Under the pieces are notes generated by a model. That model had not been told where the DNA came from. It saw nothing but the letters and a program-made list of their open reading frames with translations, and did not search any database. The position numbers and the translations under genes were made by a program. Source: Candidatus Saccharimonadota bacterium (lineage in GTDB: Bacteria > Patescibacteriota > Saccharimonadia > Saccharimonadales > 2-12-FULL-41-12). From it: a DNA stretch of 64,000 bases. Location: contig JALHOM010000001.1 in NCBI GenBank assembly GCA_022842995.1, forward strand, positions 10,444-74,443, read 5' to 3'. Positions 1 to 61,614 of the stretch are shown here, in pieces. Numbering within the stretch: the first letter of the stretch is position 1; each line of letters starts with the position of its first letter.

Positions 1-1364
<1,364 letters not shown>

Positions 1365-1644
1365 TCAGCTCTGCCGTTTAACTGCTAGGCGTTACACAGG
1401 GTTTTTATTTTACCACTTGTCGACGCCACGTTGTTTGACAGTGTTATTCGTTGCTAGATACAGCATAGCAGATTACCCCTTAGGACATCAATTACCGTCG
1501 GGTAGTTAGCCCTGTATTCGCTCACTCTTTCGACAAATCAACCAACTACTGAGGTCCACCTCTTGTAAAGAGGTTGATATTTATGATTTAATTAAGCTTA
1601 AGCAAAACTATATTAATTTACAAATAAAAAAGTGAGACACGCCC

Positions 1645-3606: not shown

Positions 3607-3630
3607 AGTTAAGAATAAGGAAGTAAAACA

Positions 3631-4200
3631 ATGAGCGAAAATGCACCCAAAGCACCTCAGCACGAACAAAAGAATACCGATACTTACGGCACGGCCGAAG
3701 AAAGAGAAAAGAATTTAGCCAAAGCCGCAGAACAACACTCCAAAACACCGGCTGAGCAAGCTAAAAAAAATCTCGAACAACTCCATCACAAAGCCGAACA
3801 TCAAGCATCGAAAGCCGAAGAATTACTTCAAAAAATGGATGCCGACAATGATCATGCGCACGCACCGCATCACTATAAAGCACCATCTATCAGTCAGACC
3901 TTGGCTCAAGCCAGACGCCACCTCAAGCCTTCTGAGCGTGCGCTTAGTAAAATAGTGCATAACCCTAAAGTGGAAGTTATTAGCGACGCCGCCGGCGCCA
4001 CCATTGCGAGGCCTTCAGGGTTGCTCTACGGCGCTTTATTCTCATTTATCGGGTCTTTGGGCTATTTAATCATTGCCAAGCGTTACGGGTATGAATACAA
4101 CGCTTTCGTGGCTATACTCACGTTTGGTGGAGGCTTTGTATTTGGACTATTCGTAGAAGCCATAAGTCGCCTCCTCAGTTTAGGCCGCAAAACCAGCTAA
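3631..4200 (+). CDS. hypothetical membrane protein: charged His/Lys/Glu-rich N-terminus and two C-terminal TM helices
   Basis: ORF with AAGGAAG SD-like sequence upstream. C-terminal hydrophobic helices (LLYGALFSFIGSLGYLIIA, FVAILTFGGGFVFGLFVEAI). Confidence 0.5.
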   Translation: MSENAPKAPQHEQKNTDTYGTAEEREKNLAKAAEQHSKTPAEQAKKNLEQLHHKAEHQASKAEELLQKMDADNDHAHAPHHYKAPSISQTLAQARRHLKPSERALSKIVHNPKVEVISDAAGATIARPSGLLYGALFSFIGSLGYLIIAKRYGYEYNAFVAILTFGGGFVFGLFVEAISRLLSLGRKTS

Positions 4201-4315: not shown

Positions 4316-7300
4316 CTAACCCCGAAGCGAAATTTCACCTTCAGCACCGGCATCATTACTGATCTCGGTGTGACCTGTTGGCGAAGGTCCATCTATAGAA
4401 GCCTGGGCATGGGGGGTCTGGGGACCATAACTCATCGAATTTATATCTGTCATAGGTCGATTATTATTTGATACGACAGATGAATCGTTATCTAAATCTG
4501 TGGCATTAGATGACGGACTGTAGGGTCGCCGTGGAATGTCATTCGTAAATCGACTAGGCCCAGATGCATCAGAGTTACTTGGTGTCATCATGTCCGAAGC
4601 GCCAAGATTATCTCTCAAGCTTTGGCCTTGATCATTAAGACCGTCCGAAGACTGTCCAGTTGCATCTTGAACCCCTGCTTGATACTGTTGCCCCGAAAAC
4701 TGGCCCGAATCATCCATAGGACTAGAGGCGGTAGACCGATATTCAGAAAGCTGACCCGAGGCTGGATTTAATGTGGGATCTACCGACTGCGTTGCGTCTG
4801 CCATTGGCGCAGGATAAGGATTAGCCTGTGGCTGAGCCACAGGAGCTTGAGCGGCAGGATATGGCGGGGGCACTGGACCTTGAGTATCTTTCTTGGCCAA
4901 CCACTGGTCTAAGAATGAGCCGCCGGCGCCACCTGGATCTTGTGAAGCAAATGGATCGCCCGCTCCAGCCGGTGGCACACCTGGCTGTTGTTGACCCGTC
5001 GCATCGGTGTCGGTGTCCATACGACTAAAGATTTCCTTCTCTACCACCTGTCGAGGACGGCCGTATTTGGCTGCCGACAACTGCTTCAGGGCATCACCCA
5101 ACTCTTTATTCGGCGTACCTAATGGTGCGATTGTTGCCATACTAAATGGCTGCGTTGGCACTCCACCAATGAGAGTGCGAACGATCGTGTTATAGTTCGG
5201 AATTCTGAGCAGATCATCACCGTCAAACAGTGGCTGGAAGTAGCGCGACAGTACGTCGACATCATTCTGGCCAATACGAAACGCCACTGTCGTACCAATA
5301 TTTCCAAATACCGCGTCACGAATTTCTTCGGTTAACTGCGTCGTAAACTGGTTAGCCACTACCAAGTTAAGCCGGTATTTTCGAGCCTCAGACATAATTG
5401 TCGCAAACGAATCGGTCGAGAAGTTCTGGAACTCATCGACGTACAAACAGAAGTCCACGCGCTGATCTTCGGGGATATTTGCTCGGCTCATAGCAGCCGC
5501 TTGGAACTTCATGACAAAGATCATGCCCAGCAGCTTAGAGTTAAGTTCACCGGTCCGCCCTTTGCTGAGATTAACGATCAAAATCTTCTTATTATCCATG
5601 ATGTCACGCAGATCAAACGAACTATCAATCTGACCGATGATATTACGCATCATACCGTTGCTTAAGAACGCACCGAACTTACTCACGAACCAACTAACCA
5701 CCTCGCCGAAGTCGTTCGATCTCTTTGATTGAGGCATTTCTTTATACCAAAAATCCAAGACATTACGGTCAGTGACGTACTGAAGCTTAGACTTAACATA
5801 ATCGTCGTCTCTAAAGAGTTTCGGAATATCGATAAAGCTACCACCATCAGGGCCAGCCATAACCGTCAGAGCCGCCATCCTGAATAAGTGTTCATAGCGC
5901 GGGCCAATAATTCCCTGCCTTTGCGGGTCATACAGCTTATAAAGGACGTTGATAACTTCCTGAATAACGAAGTCTTTCTCGTCGTCGTTCTCGGCTTCAA
6001 AGATATTGAGACCAAGTGGATAGTCGGTGTCCGCGGGACAGAAATATATAACGTCTTCAGTTCGTTCCTTCGGAACCATAGAAATAAGTGTTTCTGCCGT
6101 ATCGCCGTGCGGATCAATAAATGCAAAACCATTCCCCATTAACATGTCCTGGAGCGCGAGGTTTTCGAGGAACGTAGACTTACCTGTACCTGTCTGACCA
6201 ACAACATAGATATGTCGTTGACGATCCTGGAGCGCCAGTCGAATCGGCTTTTTTATGCCACGGAATAAGTTGTAACCCAGCAATAATCCGTGTTCAGGCA
6301 CATTTCGAGGTCCATCTACTTGCTTGGAATCTTGGCGTGTCAGCTGCGATGTCGGAATATCTTCTTGTTGTGGAAAATGAAACAGCGTCGCTAATTCTAC
6401 GGAGTTTAAGATGTTCTTATTATGATGTTGAGGGAACAAACGTAGTATATAAGCTGTTGTAAATTCCTCTATATTTCCCGATGCAGACCACTTAAAGCCG
6501 TTTTTGCCCGGTGCATCAAATAGTGAGAAGCTCGCTACAACGTTGCTCAATATATCTTGAGCTCGTTGGTGAATATTAGAGGACACGACAATTCGAAGTG
6601 TCGTCTCGAAACCGGGGTGCCTTGTCTTGTCATCAATAGAATCAAGGATCTGCTGCTCATTTGCCGAAAGCTCTTTACCCGGACTACTGCCACCAGAACC
6701 TTTATCTTCAGGCGGCTTCGTGAGAGCATAAGCTACCTGCCCCATCCACCAGAAAATCTGAGAGACACCTTTTTTCTGCTTCTCACCTTTTCGCTTCTTG
6801 CTGGCGTGACCACTTGCCGATTTAGTCCATGAACTCTTTGCTGGTCGCACCAAGATCTGAATACCAACTCCGTCCTGTTTATCAAGTGCAGAAAGGGCGT
6901 TTAGAACAGACTGCATCGGATCACGCTTAATGTCTCTATACGTGGCAATCGGGTAAGCGTACTTCTCTTTCAGTGTTAGCTCACCACCGACAACCCCCGT
7001 TATGCCACCAACTTTATTGAACAAGTTATAATCAGCAACTTCTTCAAGTCGTGCCGAAGGATATGCACTTACCACCGCCTGCTTAACAACTTCAATTAAG
7101 GTTAGCGGCACCGACGCATAAAGATTTACCACACCATGTAAACATACTATTTCAAAGCCAATATGTCTTTGCCCATAGAAACTACTCTTGAAACCTGGCT
7201 GCGTCGTGCTCGAAATAATGTTGTAAATAAATTCTGCTTTTGAGATATTCTCATCTGTTACATCACGAATATCTCGTGAACCTATGTCAGTATCATCGCT

Positions 7301-7459: not shown

Positions 7460-7855
7460 CTAATTGCCCTCTGAAACCTTAATATCTTTGTTGTATCGTT
7501 TCTTCAAGTAATCGGCCTTCGCCCTACTAATCTCTTGTTGCTGGATGAAGGGGTTGGTAGCGGTTCTGGCCGCGATTTCCTTCAGGTGATTAACCCACTC
7601 CTTCTCGATAACATCTACATCGTTGGCTTCTGGCGGTATAGAACTGATCTGCTGCGCAAGCTTTGGCGTTACCGCAAAAGGGTCAGCGGGCGCCACGGCC
7701 GGCGGAACCTGGGCAGGAGCAGCAGGATCAAGCGGTGGAGCCATAGAAGGTATTGCTGGTGCTGCAGCAGGAGCGCTTGAGTCTAGCGCACCATCATTAT
7801 CTTGGGGCGTGTTCGAACCTGGGACTGGTAAAAAACTATTTTGATCCATTATCAA
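7460..7855 (-). CDS. small Pro/Ala-rich protein, translationally coupled upstream partner of the ATPase (3-bp gap)
   Basis: The ORF ends 3 bp before the ATPase start codon. The central region is P/A-rich low complexity; the C-terminal ~45 residues are charged and helical. Confidence 0.45.
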   Translation of the reverse strand: MIMDQNSFLPVPGSNTPQDNDGALDSSAPAAAPAIPSMAPPLDPAAPAQVPPAVAPADPFAVTPKLAQQISSIPPEANDVDVIEKEWVNHLKEIAARTATNPFIQQQEISRAKADYLKKRYNKDIKVSEGN

Positions 7856-7999
7856 ATACTAAACTGCTCATGCTTCTACTTCGTTAGGCGCGTTCAAACA
7901 AGTGCGCATTCTTCCCTGGATTATAGCACATATCACAATAAAAATCAGCATCCTGACAAGTGCGTAAATTCAGATCACAAAGAAGGATAAAACTGACCT

Positions 8000-8329
8000 T
8001 CAGAATTTATTGATATAGATGTAGGAAATAAGCATTAAAAGGCCGAGCAGCAGTATATCGCCTAATACGATTCCGCCACTTGATTGGAACAATAAAATCA
8101 AAGTTAAGCCAACCGCAAAGACGATGGATATAGTACGATGTTTCGTACTTGGGGTGCTCAGAAAAAATAATTTCATAAAAAGCGATGCAAATAAAAATCC
8201 AGCTATGAATACAAGCAAGACAGGGACCATCAATAGGCCGACGGGCAAATCTCTTGGATCGGTTAGCCCAAAAAATACGACTCCAATAGCCACTGTTGCT
8301 ACTAGTAGCATGGACATCTTAACTATCAC
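8000..8329 (-). CDS. small integral membrane protein (3 predicted TM helices)
   Basis: 109-aa ORF with three hydrophobic segments. Confidence 0.45.
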   Translation of the reverse strand: MIVKMSMLLVATVAIGVVFFGLTDPRDLPVGLLMVPVLLVFIAGFLFASLFMKLFFLSTPSTKHRTISIVFAVGLTLILLFQSSGGIVLGDILLLGLLMLISYIYINKF

Positions 8330-8880
8330 GATCTTTCTTGTCCTTTACGACTACTTTAATCTATATTCAAGACATAATCGTTTGAGAAATATCATACATA
8401 TTAAAAAAACAAAAACGCCTCGTGTATTAGTGTACCCTTTTTCAAGACGTTTTTGCTTACAAATTGTGGATTGATATTTAGAGGCCGGGACGATAAAACC
8501 GCTCCATTAAATAAACTATTTAGCGCTTATCGTCGACCGAGCCTTGACTGACCGCTCATCATTGCTTTAAAGGCAACTTTGAGCGTTATTTTTAAATGTT
8601 TTTATGTTCAACATTCATGCTCGTATACTAGCGCATTATGCCGCTTATGTCAATCCTTATTATAGACTTATCAACAACGTTCATCTGTAAATTAAAGGCG
8701 ATTCTATGTTGTGATCAATACAATATTAATTTTTTGCTATTGATATAATCCTCATTTAGACATAGGTTAAACTATAAAAAAGTATATCCATCGTGAATAA
8801 CTTTTCAATAAAATCCTAGCCTCATAAGGCCCAAATTTTCCAGACCCGAACAACTGATCCTGATGCTCATTTTGTTAAAT

Positions 8881-8910: not shown

Positions 8911-9783
8911 TTTTTTGCTGATTCGATCATAGACTTTAGCAACCGAATCAAATTCTCAGGACTACATGATAATTAATTTTAATCCTGTATTTGTTTATTA
9001 AGCATATACATTAATCAATATTTTATCTATGGCGTTCGGCTTTAAGCGCGATATAACCAAGTATTTTCATGTTATCAATATCATGATGGTCTTTGTATCG
9101 ACATTTATAAATAGAAGTCGACCAATAACATTTTCTAGCAGGAAAAATTATCCGACCAACATTTCGCATAAAAATTCCTAAGAATGATTCATGGCCATTC
9201 AAATCCCCTCACCCGCCAAGTCTTCCAGCTAGGGCATCTTCCAAGCCTATCCTTATTTTTTGAAACCACCTTTTTACTAAAACGAGTGATTTTGCCATGC
9301 AGCATCGAGCCTGAATTTCATGAACAGGAAACCATAAAGATACAGTCGATAAGCTTTATTGGGTTAATTAAACTACGCGATTACATATTAATTTCATGGA
9401 TTATGAATGAGGTTTAACATAAACATTTTGAGCACTCATAAGCATAAAGTTTATGATTCAAAATATTGCATTTTTTGGCATACATTTATTGAATAAATAA
9501 TCTGTGGAAAACTTATGCACATATTGTACTCATTTCTTTATTGACAGGTTAAATCTCTCACAGTAATATGGGGTTAGCACTTGAATAAAAAAAGTGCTCA
9601 AAAACAAAAACGTCTCTGTTAACAACGGCTTCTCGCAAGCCGTTGTTCCATAACACTGGGACGTTCGATAACAGAAAATTATAAATAAAAACCGCAGAAA
9701 ATAACCCCGCAGCATAAGCTACGGGGTTGTTTTTATATTAAGGTAATTGTTCTTTTGCAAACCTGGGGTATACTTTCAGACAC

Positions 9784-11304
9784 ATGAAAACCAGATCCAA
9801 AATTCAGACAATCATCGAAGCATCTAATGGCGGTGTGATAGTCGATATTGAATGTCATATTTCAAATTCCTTACCAAACATCGTAATTGTTGGTTTTGCC
9901 AATCGATCGGTCGACGAAGCCAAAGAACGCATCCGCGGAGCTTTAGCCTCCAGCAATATCCAATTACCGAAAAAACGAATTACCGTCAATTTAGCTCCTG
10001 CCGACCTACCTAAAGAAGGTTCCTATTTTGATCTTCCGATCACTCTTGGCATTTTAACTGAGAGCGGGATTATTTCTCCAGGACCAATCAAAGACACCGC
10101 TTGTTTTGGAGAAATTGGACTCGACGGGTCGATACGCCCTGTTCGCGGAATCATCGGAAAAATCCTAAATGCGCAGAAACTCGGCTTTAATAAATTCCTT
10201 ATTCCCGAAGACAACTGCGATCAGGCGCGGCTGATACCTGGCGTTACTATTATTACGGCCAATACAATAAAAGGACTGGTCTCGTGCCTTAATGATCAAT
10301 CTAGTATATATGCGATCGATACTGGCGAAGGCAAACTACCTATGACTCCCCCCGCCAACCAAAATAGCGCAAACTCGATTGACGACGTTATAGGCCAACA
10401 GCACGCCAAACGTGCTCTCGTGATTGCAGCGGCCGGACACCACAACATCATGCTCAGTGGCCCACCGGGTGCGGGAAAATCAATGCTAGCAAACACTATT
10501 ACAAGTATCATGCCTCCCCTGACCTTAACCGAGATTCTCGAAACAACCCATATTCACAGCCTGGCTAGCCGAAACTACGACCAGATCATCCATGAGCGAC
10601 CGGTTCGCTCGCCTCATCATAGTGCCAGCGCAATCGCCGTAATCGGCGGCGGACAAAACCCGAGACCGGGTGAAATTAGCCTAAGTCACAACGGTGTTTT
10701 AGTTTTTGACGAATTTCCGGAGTTCAATCGGCAAGTCATCGAAGCCCTTCGGCAACCGCTGGAAGATAAGGTTATCAGTGTTGCCAGGGCCAAAGATACC
10801 GCCAACTTCCCTGCCGATTTTCTTCTCATAGCTACCGCTAACCCCTGCCCCTGCGGCTTTTTTGGAACAAGCAAAGAGTGTTCTTGCCTCCCATATCAGA
10901 TCACAAATTACCAACGGAAAATCTCTGGACCAATAATCGACCGTATCGACCTTTACGTCGATGTCGACGAGGTAGAGCACGCCTCTATATTGAAGACGCA
11001 GGCCTCTGAGCAAGCTCCCCGACTGTCCACACAGATAAAGGACGCTCGCGACAGGCAATTATCTAAGCGAGGAAAATTAAACTCGAGATTAAGCGGAAAA
11101 GACTTCCGAGACAGCAATCTACTTGCAGCCGAGGCCAAGAAGTACCTTGACGACGCCAGCAACCCCCTCGGACTGTCCGCCAGAAGTTATATAAGAGTTC
11201 TACGCATTGCTCGGACGATAGCCGATCTTGAGTTGTCAGAGAAGATTGAAGAACATCACGTCGCTGAAGCCCTGCAGTATCGGAAACGACATCAGGCACT
11301 ATAG
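9784..11304 (+). CDS. comM: YifB/ComM family Mg-chelatase-like AAA+ ATPase (competence protein ComM)
   Basis: N-terminal Lon-protease-like domain, Walker A GPPGAGKS, and a C-terminal Mg-chelatase subunit ChlI-like region. The whole-length pattern is typical of ComM. Confidence 0.85.
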   Translation: MKTRSKIQTIIEASNGGVIVDIECHISNSLPNIVIVGFANRSVDEAKERIRGALASSNIQLPKKRITVNLAPADLPKEGSYFDLPITLGILTESGIISPGPIKDTACFGEIGLDGSIRPVRGIIGKILNAQKLGFNKFLIPEDNCDQARLIPGVTIITANTIKGLVSCLNDQSSIYAIDTGEGKLPMTPPANQNSANSIDDVIGQQHAKRALVIAAAGHHNIMLSGPPGAGKSMLANTITSIMPPLTLTEILETTHIHSLASRNYDQIIHERPVRSPHHSASAIAVIGGGQNPRPGEISLSHNGVLVFDEFPEFNRQVIEALRQPLEDKVISVARAKDTANFPADFLLIATANPCPCGFFGTSKECSCLPYQITNYQRKISGPIIDRIDLYVDVDEVEHASILKTQASEQAPRLSTQIKDARDRQLSKRGKLNSRLSGKDFRDSNLLAAEAKKYLDDASNPLGLSARSYIRVLRIARTIADLELSEKIEEHHVAEALQYRKRHQAL

Positions 11305-33802: not shown

Positions 33803-33840
33803 TACCACACTTTTTGAACGATCGTTCAAAAAGTGTGGTA
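33803..33840. repeat. 38-bp perfect palindrome TACCACACTTTTTGAACGATCGTTCAAAAAGTGTGGTA (copy A of a palindrome family; arms 11 + CGATCG + 11)
   Basis: Read directly; self-complementary. It lies 12 bp upstream of the ATG of the 157-aa gene and in the ndk upstream region. It contains divergent TTGAAC hexamers. Confidence 0.9.
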
Positions 33841-33851
33841 CTATTTTTCAT

Positions 33852-34325
33852 ATGGACAGGAAGTTGACAGGAACACAATATATTTTGCTTGCGCTTATTC
33901 CCTATACCAAAGCAAACTTGCAGTTTAGCTTTGCCAGAAAGTCATTCTTTAGAGAAGTAGCGATCAGGGATCATGTTCACGAAAAAGCAGCTCGCAGTGG
34001 GTTTTACCGAGCAATGAAACAAGGGCTCATAGAAGAAGACGAAAAGGGCCAAATAAGACTCACCAACAAAGGTAAGCGTCGAATAGCGACATACACTTCT
34101 CGCTACCTACCGAACAGCAACCTTATGGTAATATTCGATATCGCCGAAGCAGAGCGAGCAAAGCGTTCTCACGTCAGAGCACTCCTCAAAGAATTATCTT
34201 TCAAGCAAGTTCAAAAGAGCGTATGGGTCAGCGAGTACGATCATCGATCTTTAGTGCAAATGGAAGTCGAACACCTGAAGCTGCAGGACTCCATCCAAGT
34301 ATTCGAATGCTATCGCCTATCATAA
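33852..34325 (+). CDS. putative DNA-binding regulator (wHTH-like N-terminus) with a C-terminal Cas2-like motif
   Basis: The C-terminal ~65 aa (LMVIFDIAEAERAKRSHVRALLKELSFKQVQKSVWVSEY...VFECYRLS) follows the Cas2-like pattern hhhhYDI...R..h...L...G.R.Q.SVF..., which is also seen in PaaX-type regulators. The N-terminus is basic and helical. The gene is exactly bracketed by palindromes A and B. Confidence 0.5.
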   Translation: MDRKLTGTQYILLALIPYTKANLQFSFARKSFFREVAIRDHVHEKAARSGFYRAMKQGLIEEDEKGQIRLTNKGKRRIATYTSRYLPNSNLMVIFDIAEAERAKRSHVRALLKELSFKQVQKSVWVSEYDHRSLVQMEVEHLKLQDSIQVFECYRLS

Positions 34326-34329
34326 ATTT

Positions 34330-34367
34330 TTACTACACTTTTTGAACGATCGTTCAAAAAGTGTAGT
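34330..34367. repeat. 38-bp perfect palindrome TACTACACTTTTTGAACGATCGTTCAAAAAGTGTAGTA (copy B), 5 bp after the stop of the 157-aa gene and 118 bp upstream of the recombinase gene
   Basis: Read directly. Differs from copy A at one symmetric position. A TAGTAT -10-like hexamer sits at its right edge. Confidence 0.9.
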
Positions 34368-34484
34368 ATTGTTGGTTATTCGATTGTTTGTTGCTCGGGG
34401 GGTTGGAGTATAAAAGATTTTGGATAGAAGCTGTGGAGGTCTTGTAAATGAGGTGGTTTGGTTGGGGTGAGATAGAATAAGTAC

Positions 34485-52933: not shown

Positions 52934-54901
52934 ATGCTAACAATTGCGGGCCAATTTCATGTCCACCATCTCCCTACTTTTCGTGTCAGGCTATCTGTTA
53001 ATTGGCCACTCGTTGTTACTGTAGCGGCTGCCCTGATCGGCTCGACGCTCCTGCTCCTCGGCGTTAATTTTGTAACGCCAAAAACCCTGGCCTTCAACTA
53101 CGCCCAAAACAACAGTTGCATAGTAAATCCCACACTCTTCCCCGGCGCGACCAAAGTAGCGAGTGATAATTATCACGTAAATCGCATTGGCAATATTTCG
53201 TTCGGTAATTTTCCACTGTATTCTCACTCAACTTGTTTTCAGGCCAAAAAGCTCACTAACCAACAGGCTAGCTCAGCCAAAATTAATCTCTCCGCCCTGC
53301 CATGGCCATCTCAAAACATAACCATAAAATCTGCGCCTGCGCCGATGTTGAACTTGACCCAAGCAGCCGATAAACCAATTTCTCTGACCGACCAGCTCAA
53401 GATCAACCTCAGTTCTACCGACAAAACACATAACTATCTCCTGCAAGCTAACAATAAATCCGTCTCCTGCAACCTCGAACAGATGAGCTTGAGTTGTCCT
53501 CTCGAGGAGCTTGGGCTCAATCAAGCGACTTCTTACCCGATCGAGATCGTTCGCGAACTTGGCGGTTCGGAAAGTCAGCCGATTCTTAAATCAACCATCA
53601 CCACGGTTACTGCAGTCACCATAACGTCCAGTTCGATCAGCCCCGGCGCGCTCGTCCTAGACAAGCCAGACAAGCTAACGATCACCACCGACAAACCTCT
53701 AACGCAAGCTTCCAAAATCTCTCTTAGCTCTACTAAAGCCGGCGCTCAATCTGATATAAAGTTCAACTACACGATTGAGGGAGCAATGATCACGATCACT
53801 CCACTCACGGCTCTTCCGCGCGAAAGCGTAATCACGCTGAACATCGGTGAAATTACTGCGAGCGACAGTGGCTACTTAGAAAAACCATATAGCCTCAGCT
53901 TTACGACCAGTGGCGGACCAAAGGTTACCTCAACGGGTCTCGGGACATACGGCCAAAGCACTGCGTCGTCGGCCACCCTAAAATTTGACTCCAAACTGCT
54001 GGCAAATCAAAACTTCGGCCAGGTTGTCAGCCTTACTAAAGCCGGCTCGCCAGTAGCCACATCTGTCACGCCTGCCAGTCCCACAAGTCTCACGCTCAAG
54101 CCAAATGCTCCGCTAGAACGTTGCACAACGTATACAATCACCGTCAACGGCTCAATTGCTAACGAGTTCGGCGTCCCTGCCGAAAGCCCCTACTCTTTTA
54201 ACTTCAGGACGCTCTGCCAAGAAGTCTTCAGCATCGGAACGAGCAACGCCGGCAGATCAATCACCGCTTATAAATTTGGTAACGGCCCAACCAAAATTTT
54301 ATATATCGGCGCCACGCACGGCGACGAATTAAGCTCCAAATACATATTAGATTCCTGGATTAACGACCTCGAAGCCAATTACGCCAAGATTCCGAGTTCT
54401 AAAACCATCATCGTTATACCAGTCATCAACCCCGATGGTGCTCTGGCCGGCACGCGAGTCAATGGACGCAACGTCGACCTTAACCGAAACTTCCCGATAG
54501 CCAACTGGAAATCCGATGTCATCATGCCAGACAAAAAGCTTCTTGTCGGCGGCGGAGGCTCGGCGCCCCTATCGGAACCTGAGTCGAAAGCCCTTGCCGA
54601 CTACACCGCTTCACTCGCCCCGCGCCTAGTCCTCACCTACCATTCCAAAGGCGGTATGGTCGTCGCCAACGAAGCAGGCGACTCAGTCGCGATAGCTCAA
54701 AACTACGGCAAATCAACGCGCTTCTGGGCCACTGCCGAAAGCAAGCTCGGCACGGCATTTGCCTACGACACGACCGGTGCCTACGAAAACTGGCTAGCCG
54801 AAAAACTGTCGATCCCCGGCCTGCTCATCGAGCTAAAATCCCACACCACCAATGAATTCTCTGCCCACAAATCCGCCATGTGGGCTACCGTCAATCTGTA
54901 A
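52934..54901 (+). CDS. secreted protein with N-terminal beta-rich repeats and a C-terminal M14 zinc carboxypeptidase domain
   Basis: N-terminal TM/signal. C-terminal GATHGDELSS (HxxE Zn ligands), NPDG and NRNF motifs of M14 peptidases. Confidence 0.7.
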   Translation: MLTIAGQFHVHHLPTFRVRLSVNWPLVVTVAAALIGSTLLLLGVNFVTPKTLAFNYAQNNSCIVNPTLFPGATKVASDNYHVNRIGNISFGNFPLYSHSTCFQAKKLTNQQASSAKINLSALPWPSQNITIKSAPAPMLNLTQAADKPISLTDQLKINLSSTDKTHNYLLQANNKSVSCNLEQMSLSCPLEELGLNQATSYPIEIVRELGGSESQPILKSTITTVTAVTITSSSISPGALVLDKPDKLTITTDKPLTQASKISLSSTKAGAQSDIKFNYTIEGAMITITPLTALPRESVITLNIGEITASDSGYLEKPYSLSFTTSGGPKVTSTGLGTYGQSTASSATLKFDSKLLANQNFGQVVSLTKAGSPVATSVTPASPTSLTLKPNAPLERCTTYTITVNGSIANEFGVPAESPYSFNFRTLCQEVFSIGTSNAGRSITAYKFGNGPTKILYIGATHGDELSSKYILDSWINDLEANYAKIPSSKTIIVIPVINPDGALAGTRVNGRNVDLNRNFPIANWKSDVIMPDKKLLVGGGGSAPLSEPESKALADYTASLAPRLVLTYHSKGGMVVANEAGDSVAIAQNYGKSTRFWATAESKLGTAFAYDTTGAYENWLAEKLSIPGLLIELKSHTTNEFSAHKSAMWATVNL

Positions 54902-54912
54902 ATACGCTATAA
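54887..54912 (+). repeat. 26-bp direct repeat ACCGTCAATCTGTAAATACGCTATAA (copy 1, overlapping the last codons of the M14 gene)
   Basis: Identical to 56872-56897. Confidence 0.9.
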
Positions 54913-54952
54913 AGTCGGCAATTATCCAAAGAAGATCATCTCTTGTCTAAGA

Positions 54953-56776
54953 TTAATTTGGGACGACACTCAATACTAGGATGCTTCTTAAATTCTTAGC
55001 CAGATAATAATCGGTGCGACCTTTTATCTTTTGCTGATAATCGGCGTCGTCCGTACTACACTCTCTAATCATTGCGTGTAGACTTTTAACTATCTCACTA
55101 GGGTCTTCAGCGTGGATACCGTGTCTTGAGACAAGGTAACTTAGTTCACGCGCATCAGCTGGATTATCATAAGGGTTAAACTCGGGCAAAATATCAGCTC
55201 TGACTTCTCGAACTCTAGCTCTAAATCGCCCGCTTTCATTCGCATGCACCTTGATTCGATCGTTGCCAACTGCGTCTAACGCTAAAGCCTGGAGCCTGTC
55301 ATCGCGAAAAATCATATTTTCAGCAAGCTTCCAGGCGGGCGTCGGACGTTGCTGATTTTTGTCATAACCTACGATCGTATCTTTCAATATTGCATTATTA
55401 AAGCCACCAGAAATGGCATCAAGAACATACAGTGTTTCAATTTCTTCATGCCCTAATTTTCCCCTCATTCGAAACGCGGCCGCCATAATTGCGCGAGGTA
55501 ATTCAAAATCATCTGGTAAATCCGATAGCCCTGCCGCAATCTTTAAATATTCGGTCGTTACGTACTCTATAAAATTCTCTCGACTACTCTTACTTGGCTG
55601 ACTATCGGCTTTTCGAAAATCAATAACTTCAGCCACGTATTGAGTTAAACTTACAAATGCCTTGCTTTTTACCTCACTCTTAGCAAACAAATCCAACATT
55701 AATCCCGCAGAGCGTACCTCTGTCCGATCCAAATGTCGCATAGCCGATAGGGCATCCCCCTCTAAAGCCCAGGTAGCATCGATAATCGTGACTTCCGCTG
55801 CACCTTCAGAACCGATAGTAATGAAAGTATTCCAGGCATGCCCATCGCGCGATGGTCCCCGCTGTATACTGCTCGGGTTAGGACGTGCATCTAAATATCC
55901 TTGGCCACCCAGTCCAGCATCAAAAACAGCGTATGTATTTGCAAGCATACTTAAATCAGTCTGCGTTGCCTTAAGAGCCTCAAATACTGCTTTCACATTC
56001 GCGGCGACGTTTCTGCAAATACCATTTCCTTTCCAGGTCTTATTTCCTCTGTTAGCCATTCCTTCTCTCAATAATTCAATCGCTGTTGACCTGTCGGCTG
56101 TCGTTAATTCTTTTACCCCCACATCTTCGCTACTATACTTTGAGACACTCTGGACAAATGCCGCACTGAGCTTAACTGCCTGCTCAGGTGTCAGATGGCT
56201 CAACGAACGGATCTTTAAAGTCTCTAATAGCCGTTGGCCATCGGGATTGTATTCAGTAAATTCATTAACTACGCTTCTTAGTTCTCTCTGCCAACCGTCT
56301 CGTCGAATAGTATTTTGATATGTGTGCCCGCCATTGAAAGGATCTTCGAATAGAACATCTAGATAGGCGGGTACTGGGTGAGCCTCAGAACCTGGTGCCA
56401 CTTTTGGGGCATAGTGTTCGAGTGTCGTAAACCCAATTTTAGCTTTTGGAGTCATCTCGACGAAGACTCTGGTTCGTGAATTAATTTTCTCTAGCGACCT
56501 CATGTTCTCTAGACAAACCCCGACAGCACCGTCTTTATCATAGCCCTCACCAATCTTTGATCTCTCGTGAGTCCCATCGCTCATTTTGCGAGTAGTTACA
56601 GTGATACCTCTAGGCCCGGCAAAAAAGTAGACATCGTCCACCCCATAAAAATGACCAGCCGAAATCATTAAATCATGTAATGCAATCTGTCCAAGCCCTT
56701 TGCCGGTCAGGGGTGGTATTGGAGCTTGAGGAGCGCCTTCGCTACGGATATCTTCAGGGGGTAGTGTGTCTGCCAT
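54953..56776 (-). CDS. transglutaminase-like superfamily (papain-like Cys-His-Asp) domain protein
   Basis: KGNGICRNVAANV (G-x-C motif) and DGHAWNTF (HAW-type His). Confidence 0.5.
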   Translation of the reverse strand: MADTLPPEDIRSEGAPQAPIPPLTGKGLGQIALHDLMISAGHFYGVDDVYFFAGPRGITVTTRKMSDGTHERSKIGEGYDKDGAVGVCLENMRSLEKINSRTRVFVEMTPKAKIGFTTLEHYAPKVAPGSEAHPVPAYLDVLFEDPFNGGHTYQNTIRRDGWQRELRSVVNEFTEYNPDGQRLLETLKIRSLSHLTPEQAVKLSAAFVQSVSKYSSEDVGVKELTTADRSTAIELLREGMANRGNKTWKGNGICRNVAANVKAVFEALKATQTDLSMLANTYAVFDAGLGGQGYLDARPNPSSIQRGPSRDGHAWNTFITIGSEGAAEVTIIDATWALEGDALSAMRHLDRTEVRSAGLMLDLFAKSEVKSKAFVSLTQYVAEVIDFRKADSQPSKSSRENFIEYVTTEYLKIAAGLSDLPDDFELPRAIMAAAFRMRGKLGHEEIETLYVLDAISGGFNNAILKDTIVGYDKNQQRPTPAWKLAENMIFRDDRLQALALDAVGNDRIKVHANESGRFRARVREVRADILPEFNPYDNPADARELSYLVSRHGIHAEDPSEIVKSLHAMIRECSTDDADYQQKIKGRTDYYLAKNLRSILVLSVVPN

Positions 56777-56871
56777 TATTTTTGATTTTTGTTTTTACTA
56801 TTCTATATAAACATTAGCACTTTATCGACCGAATGTCAATGTGATGGATTACTGAATTAATACTAAAACAT

Positions 56872-56897
56872 ACCGTCAATCTGTAAATACGCTATAA
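56872..56897 (+). repeat. 26-bp direct repeat copy 2; it contains the ychF -10 element (TATAAT at 56893-56898)
   Basis: Identical to 54887-54912. It lies 11 nt upstream of the ychF ATG. Confidence 0.9.
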
Positions 56898-56908
56898 TAC
56901 TGATCAAT

Positions 56909-57988
56909 ATGAGTTTATCTATCGCAATTGTTGGCTTGCCGAATGTCGGTAAGTCTACCCTATTTAATGCACTGACCAACAGTAACATTTTGGCGGCTAA
57001 TTATCCGTTCGCGACGATCGAGCCAAATACCGGGATCGTGCCAGTACCTGACGATCGATTAAACAAGCTCGCCCAGATGTATTCTGCACAAAAAATCGTC
57101 CCCGCCACAGTAACCTTTGTCGATGTTGCCGGCCTGGTTGCTGGCGCTAGCCAAGGTGAAGGTTTAGGCAACCAATTCTTAAGTCATATCCGGAGCTGCA
57201 ATGCTATTTGCCAAGTAGTACGCGCGTTTAATGACGACAATGTGGTGCACGTCGACAACCATCTCGACCCACAAAAAGACATGGACGTCATCAATACCGA
57301 GCTAGTACTTGCCGACCTCCAGACCCTCGAAAAACGCCTACCCCGCACCGAAAAAGAAGCCCGCGCCAACCCTAAACTCAAACCGCTTGTCGACACGCTA
57401 AACAAAGTAAAATCAATTCTAGACAGTGGTACGCCACTTGCCCATGCCGGCGAGGAAATTGACCCAGAGCACATCGCTGATTTGCAGCTTATCACTGCTA
57501 AACCGATGATCTATCTATTTAATGTCGACGAGGATACGCTCACTAATGAATCCCGTAAAAACGAGCTAAAAGCCCTCGTTGGATCCGCTGAGGCTATTTT
57601 TGTATGCGCCAAGTTAGAGAGCGAACTAGCCGGTCTAGACGAATCAGAAGCCGGCGAACTGCTCGAAACGTACGGCGTTGAAGAGTCAGGCCTTAAGCAA
57701 CTAATTCACGCCGCCTACGACACACTCGGCCTGCAGAGCTACTTAACAGCTGGCGAAAAAGAAGTGCGCGCCTGGACAATCAAGAAAGGCTCGACAGCCC
57801 CACAGGCCGCCGGCGTTATTCACGGAGATTTTGAGCGTGGTTTTATTGCGGCGCAAATCGTCAGCTACCTGGATCTTATGGAAGCTGGTTCCGAAAGTGC
57901 CGCCCGCTCGGCTGGCAAAATCCGCACCGAAGGCAAAACCTATATCATGCAGCCAGATGATGTTGTCGAGTTCCGCTTCAACGTCTAG
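56909..57988 (+). CDS. ychF: ribosome-binding ATPase YchF (Obg-family)
   Basis: IVGLPNVGKSTLFNALT Walker A, NxxE instead of NKxD, C-terminal TGS domain. Confidence 0.9.
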   Translation: MSLSIAIVGLPNVGKSTLFNALTNSNILAANYPFATIEPNTGIVPVPDDRLNKLAQMYSAQKIVPATVTFVDVAGLVAGASQGEGLGNQFLSHIRSCNAICQVVRAFNDDNVVHVDNHLDPQKDMDVINTELVLADLQTLEKRLPRTEKEARANPKLKPLVDTLNKVKSILDSGTPLAHAGEEIDPEHIADLQLITAKPMIYLFNVDEDTLTNESRKNELKALVGSAEAIFVCAKLESELAGLDESEAGELLETYGVEESGLKQLIHAAYDTLGLQSYLTAGEKEVRAWTIKKGSTAPQAAGVIHGDFERGFIAAQIVSYLDLMEAGSESAARSAGKIRTEGKTYIMQPDDVVEFRFNV

Positions 57989-58043: not shown

Positions 58044-58820
58044 TTATGCATGAACTAGAGTCGGTCGAGACTGATTCGGGCTTGTCTCCGACAAACGAAT
58101 CAAACGCCTGGTGGTCCTGAAAATTCCACGAATAAGACCATCCTGGCAAGGATCATACTCCGCTACGTTAAATATATAGAACGGATCTTGATCAGTAAAA
58201 TAATAGTCTGTTGTGTCTAACCTGGTGCGTACCTCCTGCATAAGAGCATACTCGCCACTGTTATAAAATTTATTTACCCGATCAACATCAATTGTGTAGT
58301 CGCTACAGCTATGCAACTTAACCCATGCTATACCTAGATTGGCTAACCAACCCTGCAAATTTCTGAAGTTTTTACCCGCCTGAGGTAATTCAACGAACCT
58401 ATCGTGCAGAATAGCCATCTCGGGTGTTTGGTACTTTGTCACTAGTCCAGAATCAACCACTTCCTCGATGTCTTTACCTTGTTCTAGAGCTCGACTAACC
58501 AGTGACCGCCAACCCTTGGATAATACAGAAAATTGCAGATCCACTCCGTGAATTGCTGGTTCTCTGGTCGAACCCATAACGTTCCTAACATTGCCCTCTA
58601 TGTTACGCGCCACCATTTCAAATACACCAACCCCAAGCAACGGCTCAATATGCCATGAGTCAGATAGTATACCTTGAAGTTCTTCTACTCTGGCGCGACC
58701 ACGACTATCTCTGTTGAGCCCTGTCTTTGGGCTAAGTCTTTCGGCGTATGCCTCAATTAGACCTGGCAACATTTGATGAAAAACGGGCGCATCTTCTGCT
58801 ATTCGATTACCTTTTGACAT
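58044..58820 (-). CDS. hypothetical protein (258 aa), downstream partner of the ParA/NifH-like ATPase
   Basis: No recognisable motif. A 36-bp gap to the upstream ATPase gene suggests co-transcription. Confidence 0.4.
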   Translation of the reverse strand: MSKGNRIAEDAPVFHQMLPGLIEAYAERLSPKTGLNRDSRGRARVEELQGILSDSWHIEPLLGVGVFEMVARNIEGNVRNVMGSTREPAIHGVDLQFSVLSKGWRSLVSRALEQGKDIEEVVDSGLVTKYQTPEMAILHDRFVELPQAGKNFRNLQGWLANLGIAWVKLHSCSDYTIDVDRVNKFYNSGEYALMQEVRTRLDTTDYYFTDQDPFYIFNVAEYDPCQDGLIRGIFRTTRRLIRLSETSPNQSRPTLVHA

Positions 58821-58856: not shown

Positions 58857-59693
58857 TTATTCGGTCTTTACTAACCTGCTTCTTGCTCTTTGCAACCTTA
58901 TCGCTCTCGAGCTGTTAAAACCTTGTGACATACCAACAAGCTTTGTAAATTCCTGATAGTCATGATCGCTCGGACCGACAACGCCATATTCGACCTCGGC
59001 GAGCTGCTCCAATTCATGAAAAATCAGATCTGGAGGTCGACCAAACCTCTCGGATACCCGGTCAGTTTGTGATTTTGAACGTACTTTATTCAAAGCCAAA
59101 ATATGAGACACCCTCAAGTAATCCAGCTCTTGTATTATTTGCTGCGCGGTAGCGACCGAAGCGGCAGTACCTTCGCTCACAACCACAGCCAAGTCAACAC
59201 CAGCTGCCACGCCGGTGCCTACGCCATCTGTACCGGCCTTTTCATCTATCACCACCCACTGACCATTAGCTAGCTCTAAGTTTGGCAAAAGTAGTTTCAG
59301 TGGCGTAAATAGCGAATGACTACACGACCTGTCCGCTCGGATATCATCAGTATGACCACCACATTTCATCAACGATATCTTCCCTAAGCTCACCGAATAC
59401 TTACGAAAGAACTCTGACTCAACATCAAATGCGATATGTCTTTCAGCTGTCAGCAATGCCTCGCGGTAGTCCTGACAAGATGTTTCGCCAATCAAATTTA
59501 TAAGCTCTTCCAACGCACCAGAATACGGAACTACATCGCGATCACCCAACAGAGCGCTCGCCAGGTGCATATTGTGATCAGCGTCGATCGCCAAGACTCT
59601 TTCTACGGCTGGATCATTCTCAAGATACTTAACAAAGCTCGTTGCCAACGTAGATTTTCCGGCCCCTCCTTTCCCCACAAATTCAACAATCAT
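58857..59693 (-). CDS. ParA/MinD/CooC-NifH-like deviant-Walker-A ATPase (start moved to MIVEFVGKGG)
   Basis: Deviant Walker A VGKGGAGKST, then LAIDADHNMHL, the ParA/CooC-type second motif. The track ORF has a 98-codon N-terminal extension overlapping the divergent promoter. Confidence 0.6.
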   Translation of the reverse strand: MIVEFVGKGGAGKSTLATSFVKYLENDPAVERVLAIDADHNMHLASALLGDRDVVPYSGALEELINLIGETSCQDYREALLTAERHIAFDVESEFFRKYSVSLGKISLMKCGGHTDDIRADRSCSHSLFTPLKLLLPNLELANGQWVVIDEKAGTDGVGTGVAAGVDLAVVVSEGTAASVATAQQIIQELDYLRVSHILALNKVRSKSQTDRVSERFGRPPDLIFHELEQLAEVEYGVVGPSDHDYQEFTKLVGMSQGFNSSRAIRLQRARSRLVKTE

Positions 59694-59802
59694 AAATGCT
59701 AATGTACGTCGCTTCAAAATTTTCTGCAACTTTGTCGCATTAATATACATAAATGCGATATTAGCTTGTAAGTAGTCACTATACAAAGTATAGTGTAGCA
59801 AT

Positions 59803-61501: not shown

Positions 61502-61547
61502 CTCAAAATTTGTACTACACTTTTTGAACGATCGTCACAATTTTGAG
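61502..61547. repeat. palindrome family copy C: half-site TACTACACTTTTTGAACGATCG nested in an imperfect 46-bp palindrome (CTCAAAATT...AATTTTGAG)
   Basis: Read directly. The left arm is identical to copy B; the right arm is replaced. Confidence 0.8.
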
Positions 61548-61578: not shown

Positions 61579-61614
61579 TGTTCCACTTTTTTAACGATCG
61601 TTCAAAAAGTGGAA
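61579..61614. repeat. palindrome family copy D: GTTCCACTTTTTTAACGATCGTTCAAAAAGTGGAAC (36 bp, one mismatch)
   Basis: Read directly. Same core and CGATCG centre as copies A and B. Confidence 0.85.

What the first reader, a model, noticed from the sequence alone, without database searches (positions are those of the whole stretch)
54887..56897. 26-bp perfect direct repeats bracket the transglutaminase-like gene, as if it were an inserted single-gene cassette
ACCGTCAATCTGTAAATACGCTATAA occurs twice. One copy is at the last codons of the M14 peptidase gene (54887-54912). The other is 11 nt upstream of ychF (56872-56897), where it supplies the TATAAT -10.

The 1.98-kb interval between them holds exactly one gene, on the opposite strand: the 607-aa transglutaminase-like protein.

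This looks like a duplication of the peptidase-3'-end/ychF-promoter junction produced by insertion of the gene. No integrase or transposase is nearby. The mechanism could be replication slippage or micro-homology-mediated insertion. A consequence is that ychF keeps its promoter on the duplicated copy.
Basis: seen in the sequence. Interest (0 to 1): 0.6.

Follow-up and report, generated by a model that had tools for sequence, protein, structure and literature searches.

The report
Single-gene insertion with 27-bp target duplication
A foreign, self-promoted gene of unknown function was recently inserted exactly between two normally adjacent housekeeping genes of a Saccharibacteria genome, duplicating 27 bp of the junction so both neighbours stay intact; it is a clean but fairly ordinary footprint of horizontal gene acquisition, and the enzyme that did it is unknown.

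Summary
The repeat is real. It is 27 nt, not 26: TACCGTCAATCTGTAAATACGCTATAA at 54886-54912 and 56871-56897. It is perfect, has sharp edges, occurs only twice in the window, and is about 1e-7 expected by chance.

The insertion reading is supported. In the three closest relatives, the M14 peptidase gene is followed directly by ychF (gaps of 13-28 nt). The closest relative carries one copy of the junction sequence.

The 1,958-bp insert holds one 607-aa gene with its own TTGACA-17-TAATGT promoter. Its GC3 is 0.38, against 0.53-0.58 in the flanking genes.

"Transglutaminase-like" is not confirmed. The family has an invariant Cys-His-Asp set but no Pfam, PDB or Foldseek match.

Homologues are restricted to Patescibacteria and sit in many different contexts:
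- Two clades ride a ~3.6-kb large-serine-recombinase element inserted at tRNA-Ser 3' ends.
- Several gene-only copies are also bracketed by duplicated target sequence of 17-126 nt. One of these also has a verified empty site.

The mechanism is inferred, not shown. I favour recombination across a sequence shared by a circular cassette and the target, giving an integrase-less attL/attR-like (CIME-like) island. A true target-site duplication remains a serious rival.

Novelty: new member of a known kind. Interest is moderate.

The parts
54886..54912 (+). Left copy of the 27-nt direct repeat. It holds the last 16 nt of the M14 peptidase ORF including the TAA stop, plus 11 nt. It reads TATAAa at its end, so it is not a full -10 hexamer.
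56871..56897 (+). Right copy of the 27-nt direct repeat. With the next base (T at 56898) it forms the TATAAT hexamer 10 nt upstream of the ychF ATG.
   Evidence: A TATAAT lies 7-16 nt upstream of the ychF ATG in L009, L010 and L012 as well.
54913..56870 (.). The 1,958-bp inserted segment, absent from the three nearest relatives. It has no terminal inverted repeats.
   Evidence: Empty sites. Inverted-repeat test. GC 0.43-0.47 against 0.50-0.57 in the flanks.
54953..56776 (-). The only gene of the insert: a 607-aa protein of a Patescibacteria-restricted family of unknown function. C254, H313 and D333 are invariant. GC3 is 0.38.
56811..56839 (-). The insert's own sigma-70-like promoter: TTGACA (56839-56834), a 17-nt spacer, TAATGT (56816-56811). 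It lies 34 nt upstream of the ATG. The same TTGACA-17-TAxTGT arrangement precedes homologues in L017 and L018 (TTGACA-17-TATTGT), and L069 has a close variant, TTGCAA-17-TAATGT.
   Evidence: The consensus scan did not list it, because the -10 matches only 3 of 6 positions.
52934..54901 (+). M14 zinc carboxypeptidase gene (655 aa), the left neighbour. Its C-terminus is intact (…SAMWATVNL*, compare L009 …SAMWTVLNL*).
56909..57988 (+). ychF (ribosome-binding ATPase/GTPase, 359 aa), the right neighbour. It is native: 87% aa identity to L009, with uniform ~75% nt identity and no sign of a mosaic.

Best explanation
**What is shown (about 0.95 sure)**

A 1,958-bp segment carrying one promoter-equipped accessory gene was inserted recently at the junction between the M14 peptidase gene and ychF. 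Those two genes are contiguous in related Saccharibacteria. The 27-nt repeat is that junction, present once on each side of the insert. As a result the peptidase keeps its last codons and stop, and ychF keeps its -10 region.

**What is inferred (the confidence given below)**

The two copies are attL/attR-like products of conservative recombination. The partners were the chromosomal junction and an identical 27-bp sequence carried by a circular, or circularisable, form of the cassette (Campbell-type integration). This makes the locus an integrase-less, CIME-like minimal island.

The recombinase was either supplied in trans, lost afterwards, or was the host's homologous recombination acting on DNA taken up by natural transformation.

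The gene belongs to a family that is habitually mobile in Patescibacteria. Some copies travel with a large serine recombinase. Others travel as the gene alone.
For: **Empty sites.** P0103/L009 (68% aa identity to the peptidase), L010 and L012 have peptidase followed by ychF with gaps of 28, 24 and 13 nt. Upstream (PilM...) and downstream (ABC transporter, beta-lactamase, PRTase) synteny matches the window. L009 has a single ...CTCAATCTGTAAATACGCTATAAT....

**Recency.** The two window copies are 27/27 identical to each other. Each differs from L009 at 3 positions.

**Foreign composition.** GC3 is 0.38, against 0.575 (M14) and 0.53 (ychF).

**Mobility of the family.**
- Fifty genome loci were found, all in Patescibacteria-type MAGs (a few carry other bin labels). 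Their neighbours are diverse: 144 Pfam families among 150 neighbours.
- Within one tight clade (74-90% nt identity), copies sit in at least 4 contexts. Detectable homology ends at the stop codon in most pairs; among L018, L069 and L004/L005 it runs a further 123-158 nt downstream, and between L001 and L065/L068 it continues into the adjacent recombinase gene.

**Recombinase-borne copies.**
- The gene followed by a large serine recombinase forms a ~3.6-kb element at tRNA-Ser 3' ends. L001 has a 14-nt repeat and a dyad-symmetric attP.
- L065 and L068 carry a 99.9% identical element in two different tRNA-Ser genes.

**Gene-only copies that carry their own copy of the target.**
- L060 has a 126-nt repeat of the 3' end of a bPH-domain gene (bacterial PH domain, Pfam bPH_2). 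The distal 51 nt are perfect, and the proximal ~75 nt are diverged with indels. The closest relative, L070, has an empty site.
- L018 has a second ychF 5' fragment on the far side of the gene. It differs at 4 of 23 positions, all third-codon and synonymous, so it came from another functional ychF allele.
- L069 has ychF promoter/5' fragments on both sides.

**Literature.**
[quoted passage not shown] Elements that keep attL/attR but lack integration genes are defined as CIMEs (PMC5704250).
- Saccharibacteria are naturally transformable and integrate DNA by homologous recombination (PMC10633639).
Against: - No recombinase gene lies in the insert or within about 8 kb on either side. There is no serine-recombinase homologue anywhere in the 64-kb window.
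- The reconstructed circle junction and the empty site show no convincing dyad symmetry. The L001 attP does.
- The window repeat has sharp edges and no diverged extension. That is equally what a fill-in target-site duplication would leave.
- Serine-recombinase copies of this family leave only 7-14-nt repeats at tRNA-Ser genes. The window site is neither.
- The 27-mer is lineage-specific. A circle carrying it must have come from a near relative that already had the insertion, so the very first duplication event is still unexplained.
- No circular form, donor or close relative of this copy exists in the databases searched. The best homologue is 54% identical.
- Gene-flanking repeats are not unique to this family: 6 of about 265 other genes in the same loci score as high, against 4 of 47 for this family.
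Confidence: 0.45

Rival explanations
1. A true target-site duplication. Linear foreign DNA, for example taken up by natural transformation, was joined into a staggered break or across sister chromatids at a replication fork. The 27 nt were filled in or copied. The incoming DNA carried no copy of the target.
For: - The repeat is perfect and sharp-edged, with random-level flanks.
- It has no dyad symmetry, and no recombinase is nearby.
- Repeat length varies among family members (17, 27, 32, 126 nt), as expected for a mechanism with no fixed ruler.
- There is precedent for long, variable-length duplications without a mechanistic model: IS1549 and IS1634 give 8-514 bp (PMC2266710).
- Saccharibacteria are naturally competent.
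Against: - L060 and L018 show that in related cases the distal copy is a diverged copy of the target, not an in-situ one. L060 switches abruptly from 100% to ~70% identity with indels. In L018 all 4 differences are synonymous.
- No known bacterial pathway makes a 27-nt staggered cut.
- Illegitimate joining usually deletes sequence rather than duplicating it (general knowledge).
- The second insertion next to ychF (57989-~59700) has no duplication at all, so this is not a general signature of DNA uptake in this genome.
Confidence: 0.3
2. A self-mobilising single-gene element. The 607-aa Cys-His-Asp protein is itself a new kind of DNA-mobilising enzyme, and the cassette behaves like an insertion sequence that makes long, variable duplications.
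For: - The mobile unit is essentially promoter plus ORF, with about 2-94 nt upstream and 2-77 nt downstream inside the repeats.
- The gene is the only constant content.
- Its size (1.96 kb, about 600 aa) and its variable long repeats resemble IS1634 and IS1549.
- The fold is an orphan, so no function is excluded.
Against: - There are no terminal inverted repeats in the window, L060, L015 or L036.
- Only one copy was found per genome among 50 genomes.
- There is no nuclease, DDE, HUH or recombinase signature.
- Two clades travel with a dedicated serine recombinase, which a self-sufficient element would not need.
- The Cys-His-Asp set with Cys at a helix N-terminus is protease/transglutaminase-like chemistry.
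Confidence: 0.07
3. The gene is ancestral at this locus. It was deleted in the relatives by recombination between the two repeats, leaving what looks like an empty site.
For: - Deletion between direct repeats would leave exactly one copy, as seen in L009.
- Homologues lie next to ychF in the same divergent orientation in L017 and L018, and near it in L021 and L005.
Against: - Three separate relatives all lack it.
- The window copies are identical to each other but differ from L009 at 3 of 27 positions, so the duplication post-dates the split.
- GC3 is 0.38 against 0.53-0.58.
- The gene's tree does not place the window copy with the ychF-adjacent clade.
- In L017 and L018 the other neighbour is not the M14 peptidase.
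Confidence: 0.05
4. An assembly artefact: a loop through a shared k-mer joining an unrelated 2-kb molecule into the chromosome.
For: The window comes from a metagenome-assembled genome. A 27-mer shared by two molecules could create a graph loop at small k.
Against: A Logan contig (k=31, longer than 27) reads from 14 nt left of the left copy to 52 nt right of the right copy at 100% identity. Both integrated junctions are therefore supported by k-mers that span the whole repeat.
Confidence: 0.02

Closest known systems
[quoted passage not shown]
   Same: - Direct repeats bracket the inserted DNA.
- The repeat contains the 3' end of the target gene, so the gene is not disrupted.
- There is no recombinase inside.
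- Relatives of the cargo occur on recombinase-bearing elements.
   Different: - It carries only one gene.
- No cognate integrase or parent element is known for this att-like sequence.
- The repeat shows no recombinase-type dyad.
- Excision or mobilisation has not been shown.
- The host is a Patescibacterium.
Large-serine-recombinase integrative elements (e.g. SCC-type or Tn4451-type IMEs). Here, the gene+recombinase elements of L001 and L065/L068 at tRNA-Ser 3' ends.
   Same: They carry the same cargo gene family (about 50-54% aa identity to the window copy). They have the same compact architecture, with the cargo gene next to the element end.
   Different: The window has no recombinase gene and its target is not a tRNA-Ser. 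Its repeat is 27 nt, against 7-14 nt, and lacks the TGGCGGA core.
IS1634 / IS1549 insertion sequences (long, variable-length target duplications, 8-514 bp; PMC2266710)
   Same: Both are about 2-kb units with one ~550-600-aa ORF, flanked by unusually long direct repeats whose length varies between insertions.
   Different: There is no DDE transposase signature. There are no terminal inverted repeats. There is a single copy per genome.
Integron gene cassettes
   Same: Both are single-gene mobile units without their own recombinase, inserted by recombination at a short site.
   Different: - There is no attC-like imperfect palindrome.
- The cassette has its own promoter.
- There is no integron integrase or attI.
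- The insertion is not in an array.

Membership tests
CIME-like integrase-less att-flanked island | Direct repeats (attL/attR) bracket the element. | tested here: met
   A 27/27 perfect repeat sits at both junctions.
CIME-like integrase-less att-flanked island | [quoted passage not shown] | tested here: met
   The left copy holds the last 5 codons and the stop of the M14 gene. The C-terminus matches L009.
CIME-like integrase-less att-flanked island | There are no integration or transfer genes inside the element. | tested here: met
   There is one ORF, with no Pfam, PHROG, PADLOC or NCBIfam hit. There is no serine-recombinase homologue in the window.
CIME-like integrase-less att-flanked island | It derives from, or is recognised by, a cognate site-specific recombinase, and it excises as a circle. 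| not testable with these tools
   No reads are available and the rest of the genome is unseen. There is no dyad symmetry in the reconstructed junctions, which is weak evidence against.
Large-serine-recombinase integrative element (as in L001, L065/L068) | It encodes a large serine recombinase (Resolvase + Recombinase + Zn_ribbon_recom). | tested here: not met
   tblastn of three such recombinases against the window gave no hit better than E=0.69.
Large-serine-recombinase integrative element (as in L001, L065/L068) | It has short repeats at a specific target (a tRNA-Ser 3' end with a TGGCGGA core). | tested here: not met
   The target is the M14/ychF junction and the repeat is 27 nt. There is no tRNA-Ser in the window.
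DDE-type insertion sequence (including IS1634-like) | It has a transposase with a DDE (or other known) catalytic domain. | tested here: not met
   No Pfam family matched at E<=10 for the core segment, at E<=0.01 for the full-length window protein, or for 18 homologues.
DDE-type insertion sequence (including IS1634-like) | It has terminal inverted repeats. | tested here: not met
   The best inverted match of the ends is 7 nt, no better than shuffles (p about 0.5). The same holds in L060, L015 and L036.
Integron gene cassette | An attC recombination site (imperfect palindrome) lies at the cassette end, and the ORF is promoterless. | tested here: not met
   There is no dyad in the junctions. The cassette carries TTGACA-17-TAATGT upstream of its ORF.
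Xer-dependent element (IMEX) at dif | It has flanking dif-like 28-bp sites (11-6-11 dyad) at the replication terminus. | tested here: not met
   There is no dyad. GC skew does not switch sign across 50-62 kb. The site is a conserved gene junction in relatives.
Transglutaminase-like / papain-like cysteine hydrolase superfamily (label for the 607-aa protein) | It gives a significant match to a family profile such as Transglut_core. | tested here: not met
   Pfam gave nothing, even at E<=10 for the core and for distant members. A PDB profile search gave nothing relevant.
Transglutaminase-like / papain-like cysteine hydrolase superfamily (label for the 607-aa protein) | The Cys-His-Asp triad appears in that order, with Cys at the N-terminus of a helix and His and Asp on neighbouring strands. 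| tested here: met
   C254, H313 and D333 are invariant in 39 sequences. In the AlphaFold model (pLDDT 86), helix 254-270 starts at the Cys, strand 313-321 starts at the His, and the Asp follows strand 327-332.
Transglutaminase-like / papain-like cysteine hydrolase superfamily (label for the 607-aa protein) | The fold resembles solved members. | tested here: inconclusive

The most novel reading that the evidence does not exclude
The gene-only copies of this Cys-His-Asp family may form an undescribed class of single-gene mobile cassettes in Patescibacteria. They would insert beside the 3' ends or promoters of conserved genes (ychF repeatedly), with long duplications of variable length (17-126 nt) and no element-encoded canonical recombinase.

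Two routes are possible. The cassette may carry a fragment of its target and integrate through the host's competence and recombination machinery. Or the encoded protein may itself take part in DNA mobilisation.
Probability: 0.12. Interest if true: 0.75.

Novelty: new member of a known kind. Interest (0 to 1): 0.42.

Why it matters

This locus gives a base-precise, recent gene-gain footprint with verified empty sites.

It also points to an uncharacterised, phylum-restricted protein family of about 280 clusters at 50% identity. This family is repeatedly mobile, sometimes on a minimal two-gene serine-recombinase element at tRNA-Ser genes. That makes the family a candidate for a conflict-related function (defence, effector or addiction). 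Its neighbours include toxin-antitoxin, Fic, PLD-like and Shedu genes.

Saccharibacteria are now genetically tractable by natural transformation, so the integration mechanism could be tested directly.

The window feature on its own is an ordinary kind of event.

Tried and rejected
**Searches that found nothing**
- Exact scan of the JGI metagenome collection for the 21-nt core of the repeat: 0 hits. This gave no evidence for a dispersed motif, but also no same-species empty site or circle.
- Exact-protein look-ups of the window's ychF and M14 products: not on record.
- The gene in phages, plasmids and viral contigs: none.

**Tests on the sequence that were negative**
- Logan contig L008 ends near both repeats. 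I checked whether the break points fit a mixed occupied/empty population in a k=31 graph. That model predicts ends at 54883 and 56900, but the contig ends at 54872 and 56949. It is therefore not informative on this point (inference).
- Terminal inverted repeats: none.
- Dyad symmetry or a dif-like site: none.
- Extended diverged homology beyond the window repeat: none.
- A mosaic, donor-derived patch in ychF: none detectable. The relatives are only ~75% identical, so the test is weak.

**Caveats on the comparative evidence**
- The short repeats in L015 (A-rich 17-mer at two start codons) and L036 (a promoter shared with a tRNA-Ser gene) could be similar regulatory sequence rather than insertion footprints. 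I do not lean on them.
- Gene-flanking repeats are only about 3.7-fold enriched for this family over other genes in the same loci, so the phenomenon is not family-specific.


Full report
**Observation**

The reported 26-mer occurs exactly twice in the window, at 54887-54912 and 56872-56897. There are no additional copies with up to three mismatches and none in shuffled controls.

- The identity extends one base to the left. The repeat is therefore 27 nt, TACCGTCAATCTGTAAATACGCTATAA, at 54886-54912 and 56871-56897.
- About 1e-7 such repeats are expected by chance in 64 kb.
- The edges are sharp. The 80 nt on each side match at 16/80 and 19/80, and gapped alignments of the flanks are no better than shuffles.
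- The left copy covers the last five codons and the stop of the M14 carboxypeptidase gene (52934-54901), plus 11 nt.
- The right copy ends 11 nt before the ychF start (56909). It provides TATAA of the TATAAT hexamer at 56893-56898.
- Between the copies lie 1,958 nt with one long ORF, 54953-56776 on the minus strand, 607 aa.
- A Logan contig from run SRR28154521 (L008, 2,078 nt) is 100% identical to window 54872-56949 and reads through both junctions. This excludes a k-mer loop artefact.

**Is it an insertion?**

Yes. The peptidase's closest homologues in a 5.8-billion-protein collection are P0103 (68% identity), P0106 and P0110 (45% and 44%).

- In all three contigs the peptidase gene is followed directly by ychF, with gaps of 28, 24 and 13 nt.
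- The wider gene order is the same as in the window. Upstream are PilM and three large unannotated genes. Downstream are an ABC transporter, a beta-lactamase-family gene and a PRTase.
- L009 carries a single copy of the junction...ATGTGGACTGTCCTCAATCTGTAAATACGCTATAATATTG...ATG.
- L010 and L012 likewise have a TATAAT 7-9 nt upstream of the ychF ATG.
- The two window copies are identical to each other but differ from L009 at 3 of 27 positions. The duplication is therefore younger than the split of these lineages.
- The inserted gene has GC 0.45 and GC3 0.38. M14 has GC3 0.575 and ychF 0.53.
- ychF itself is native: 87% aa identity to L009, with uniform ~75% nt identity and no mosaic.
- The peptidase C-terminus is intact.

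**What was inserted**

The insert is a compact unit: 40 nt, the ORF, then 94 nt of upstream sequence. The upstream part contains TTGACA (56839-56834), a 17-nt spacer and TAATGT (56816-56811) on the gene's strand. The same TTGACA-17-TAxTGT arrangement precedes homologues in L017 and L018, and L069 has the variant TTGCAA-17-TAATGT.

There are no terminal inverted repeats. There is no convincing dyad symmetry in the reconstructed empty site or in a hypothetical circle junction.

The protein has no hit in any of the following:
- Pfam (full-length window protein at E<=0.01, core segment at E<=10, and 18 homologues)
- PADLOC, PHROGs, NCBIfam
- PDB sequences
- Foldseek against PDB or BFVD, using a confident AlphaFold model (pLDDT 86, pTM 0.80)

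- C254, H313 and D333 are invariant across 39 homologues.
- The Cys sits at the N-terminus of a helix.
- The His and Asp sit on adjacent strands.

That is papain/transglutaminase-type geometry, but membership of the superfamily is not demonstrated.

**The gene family is mobile**

Sequence searches find about 100 homologues (30-54% identity) and about 280 clusters at 50% identity. All are in Patescibacteria-type MAGs or metagenomes. None is in phage, plasmid or viral collections.

Neighbourhoods are unrelated to one another, with 144 Pfam families among 150 neighbours. The single most frequent neighbour is ychF:
- In L017 and L018 the gene lies next to ychF in the same divergent arrangement as in the window.
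- In L021 it is one gene away.
- In L005 it is 5 kb away.

In a tight clade (74-90% nt identity) copies sit in at least four contexts. Detectable homology stops at the stop codon in most pairs; among L018, L069 and L004/L005 it extends a further 123-158 nt downstream, and between L001 and L065/L068 it continues into the recombinase gene.

Two clades carry the gene immediately upstream of a large serine recombinase. Together these form a ~3.6-kb element inserted at the 3' end of tRNA-Ser genes:
- L001-L003 have a 14-nt repeat, TTCTATCTGGCGGA, and a dyad-symmetric attP.
- L065-L067 and L068 carry a 99.9% identical element in two different tRNA-Ser genes. This is direct evidence of recent site-specific movement.

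The window has no such recombinase.

**Other gene-only copies with duplicated target**

- **L060 (Moraniibacteriota).** The gene is bracketed by a 126-nt repeat of the 3' end of the upstream bPH-domain gene (bacterial PH domain, Pfam bPH_2). The distal 51 nt are perfect. The proximal ~75 nt of the second copy are ~70% identical, with indels. The closest relative (89% aa identity, L070) has the bPH gene followed directly by a penicillin-binding-protein gene, which is an empty site.
- **L018.** A second ychF 5' fragment lies on the far side of the gene, at the contig end. It differs from the resident ychF at 4 of 23 positions. All four are at third codon positions and synonymous, so the fragment evolved as part of another functional ychF before it arrived.
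- **L069.** ychF promoter/5' fragments lie on both sides of the gene.
- **L015 and L036.** The shorter repeats here (17 nt and 32 nt) could be similar regulatory sequence, and I do not rely on them.

Gene-flanking repeats are not exclusive to this family. Six of about 265 other genes in the same loci score as high, against 4 of 47 for this family.

**Mechanism**

Insertion with duplication of the junction is shown. How it happened is inferred.

I favour conservative recombination between the chromosomal junction and an identical sequence on a circular form of the cassette. This gives an attL/attR-like, CIME-like island. The reasons are:
[quoted passage not shown] This is the hallmark of recombinase-type integrative elements, and integrase-less derivatives of such elements are a recognised category (PMC5704250).
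- The family is demonstrably cargo of site-specific elements.
- In L060 and L018 the incoming DNA carried its own diverged copy of the target. A fill-in duplication cannot produce that.
- The crossover position within the ychF upstream region differs between lineages, and repeat length varies. This fits homology-driven integration better than a fixed core. Saccharibacteria take up DNA and recombine it (PMC10633639).

Points against this reading for the window specifically:
- The repeat is clean and lacks a dyad.
- No recombinase is nearby.
- The serine-recombinase relatives leave 7-14-nt repeats at tRNA-Ser genes.
- A circle carrying this lineage-specific 27-mer presupposes an earlier, unexplained first duplication.

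A genuine target-site duplication therefore remains a strong rival. It could arise from staggered or replication-associated illegitimate insertion of transformed DNA. Long, variable duplications are known for IS1549 and IS1634, with no mechanistic model (PMC2266710).

A self-mobilising role for the protein is unlikely. There are no inverted repeats, only a single copy per genome, and a dedicated recombinase in some clades.

Ancestral presence with deletion in relatives, and an assembly artefact, are also unlikely.

**Comparison and verdict**

The locus works like an integrase-less att-flanked mini-island. It fails the membership tests for DDE insertion sequences, integron cassettes, Xer/dif elements and the serine-recombinase elements of its own relatives.

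It is a new member of a known kind: a precise footprint of horizontal single-gene acquisition. The interest is moderate. It comes mainly from the phylum, where mobile elements are barely described, and from the recurrently mobile orphan gene family and its minimal tRNA-Ser-targeting serine-recombinase elements.

Noticed in passing
window 57989-~59700: There is a second insertion on the other side of ychF. A 258-aa ORF with no family match (58044-58820, minus strand) and a ParA/CbiA-like ATPase (~58857-59693, minus strand) lie between ychF and the ABC transporter. L009, L010 and L012 have only a 36-93-nt spacer there. GC3 is low (0.39-0.44). No flanking direct repeat was found.
   Followed up: partly
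window 33803-33840, 34331-34368, 61513-61545, 61584-61611: There is a 38-nt near-perfect palindrome, TACCACACTTTTTGAACGATCGTTCAAAAAGTGTGGTA, with an identical 28-nt core. Two copies bracket a small gene (33852-34325, 157 aa) whose C-terminal part looks Cas2/PaaX-like by eye. Two more copies lie between the ABC-2 permease gene and the beta-lactamase-family gene. It could be an operator or another bracketed mini-cassette.
   Followed up: no
window 59778-59794; L009 ~11056-11072; L012 ~9029-9045: The palindrome ACTATACAAAGTATAGT lies just upstream of the ABC-transporter ATPase start. It is conserved in the window, L009 and L012, with a variant in L010. It is a likely operator.
   Followed up: no
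L001 5767-9443; L065 ~121-3723; L068 ~576-4178: These are minimal (~3.6 kb) two-gene integrative elements: the Cys-His-Asp gene plus a large serine recombinase, inserted at the 3' end of tRNA-Ser genes. The core is TGGCGGA (14 nt shared in L001). The L001 attP has a 9/10 dyad. L065 and L068 are 99.9% identical elements in tRNA-Ser(gct) and tRNA-Ser(cga).
   Followed up: partly
L015 377-452, 1194-1269, 4855-4930, 5665-5740; L016 2696-2761, 3759-3824; L018 ~7798-7878; L069 ~5730-5813: A 66-76-nt repeated element is present. On the opposite strand it begins a small ORF, MPPTDRGGRGYSDE(L/Y)V.... It often lies right after the stop of the Cys-His-Asp gene and between toxin-antitoxin-type genes. Its nature is unknown (a gene 5' fragment or a recombination site).
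   Followed up: no
L060 7639-7669 and 8784-8814: The gene after the L060 insertion (327 aa, weak MarR and PRTase-CE matches, 7773-8756) is itself bracketed by a 31-nt repeat with 2 mismatches. An inverted copy lies at the contig end. It is also absent from the relative L070. This may be serial insertion at one site.
   Followed up: partly
L015/L006 499-1180 and 5364-5630; L069 1946-2983; L001 5050-5607: Neighbours of the family often look like defence or conflict genes: Gp49/HTH and YafQ toxin-antitoxin pairs, a PLD-like protein, Shedu (SduA), Fic, and type IV secretion pilins. This hints at a conflict-related role for the 607-aa family.
   Followed up: no
L004, L005, L006/L015, L002, L065-L067, L018: Many contigs carrying homologues end within a few hundred bases of the gene. 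Three independent assemblies start 317-319 nt upstream of it. This suggests assembly breaks at element boundaries or strain-variable sites.
   Followed up: no
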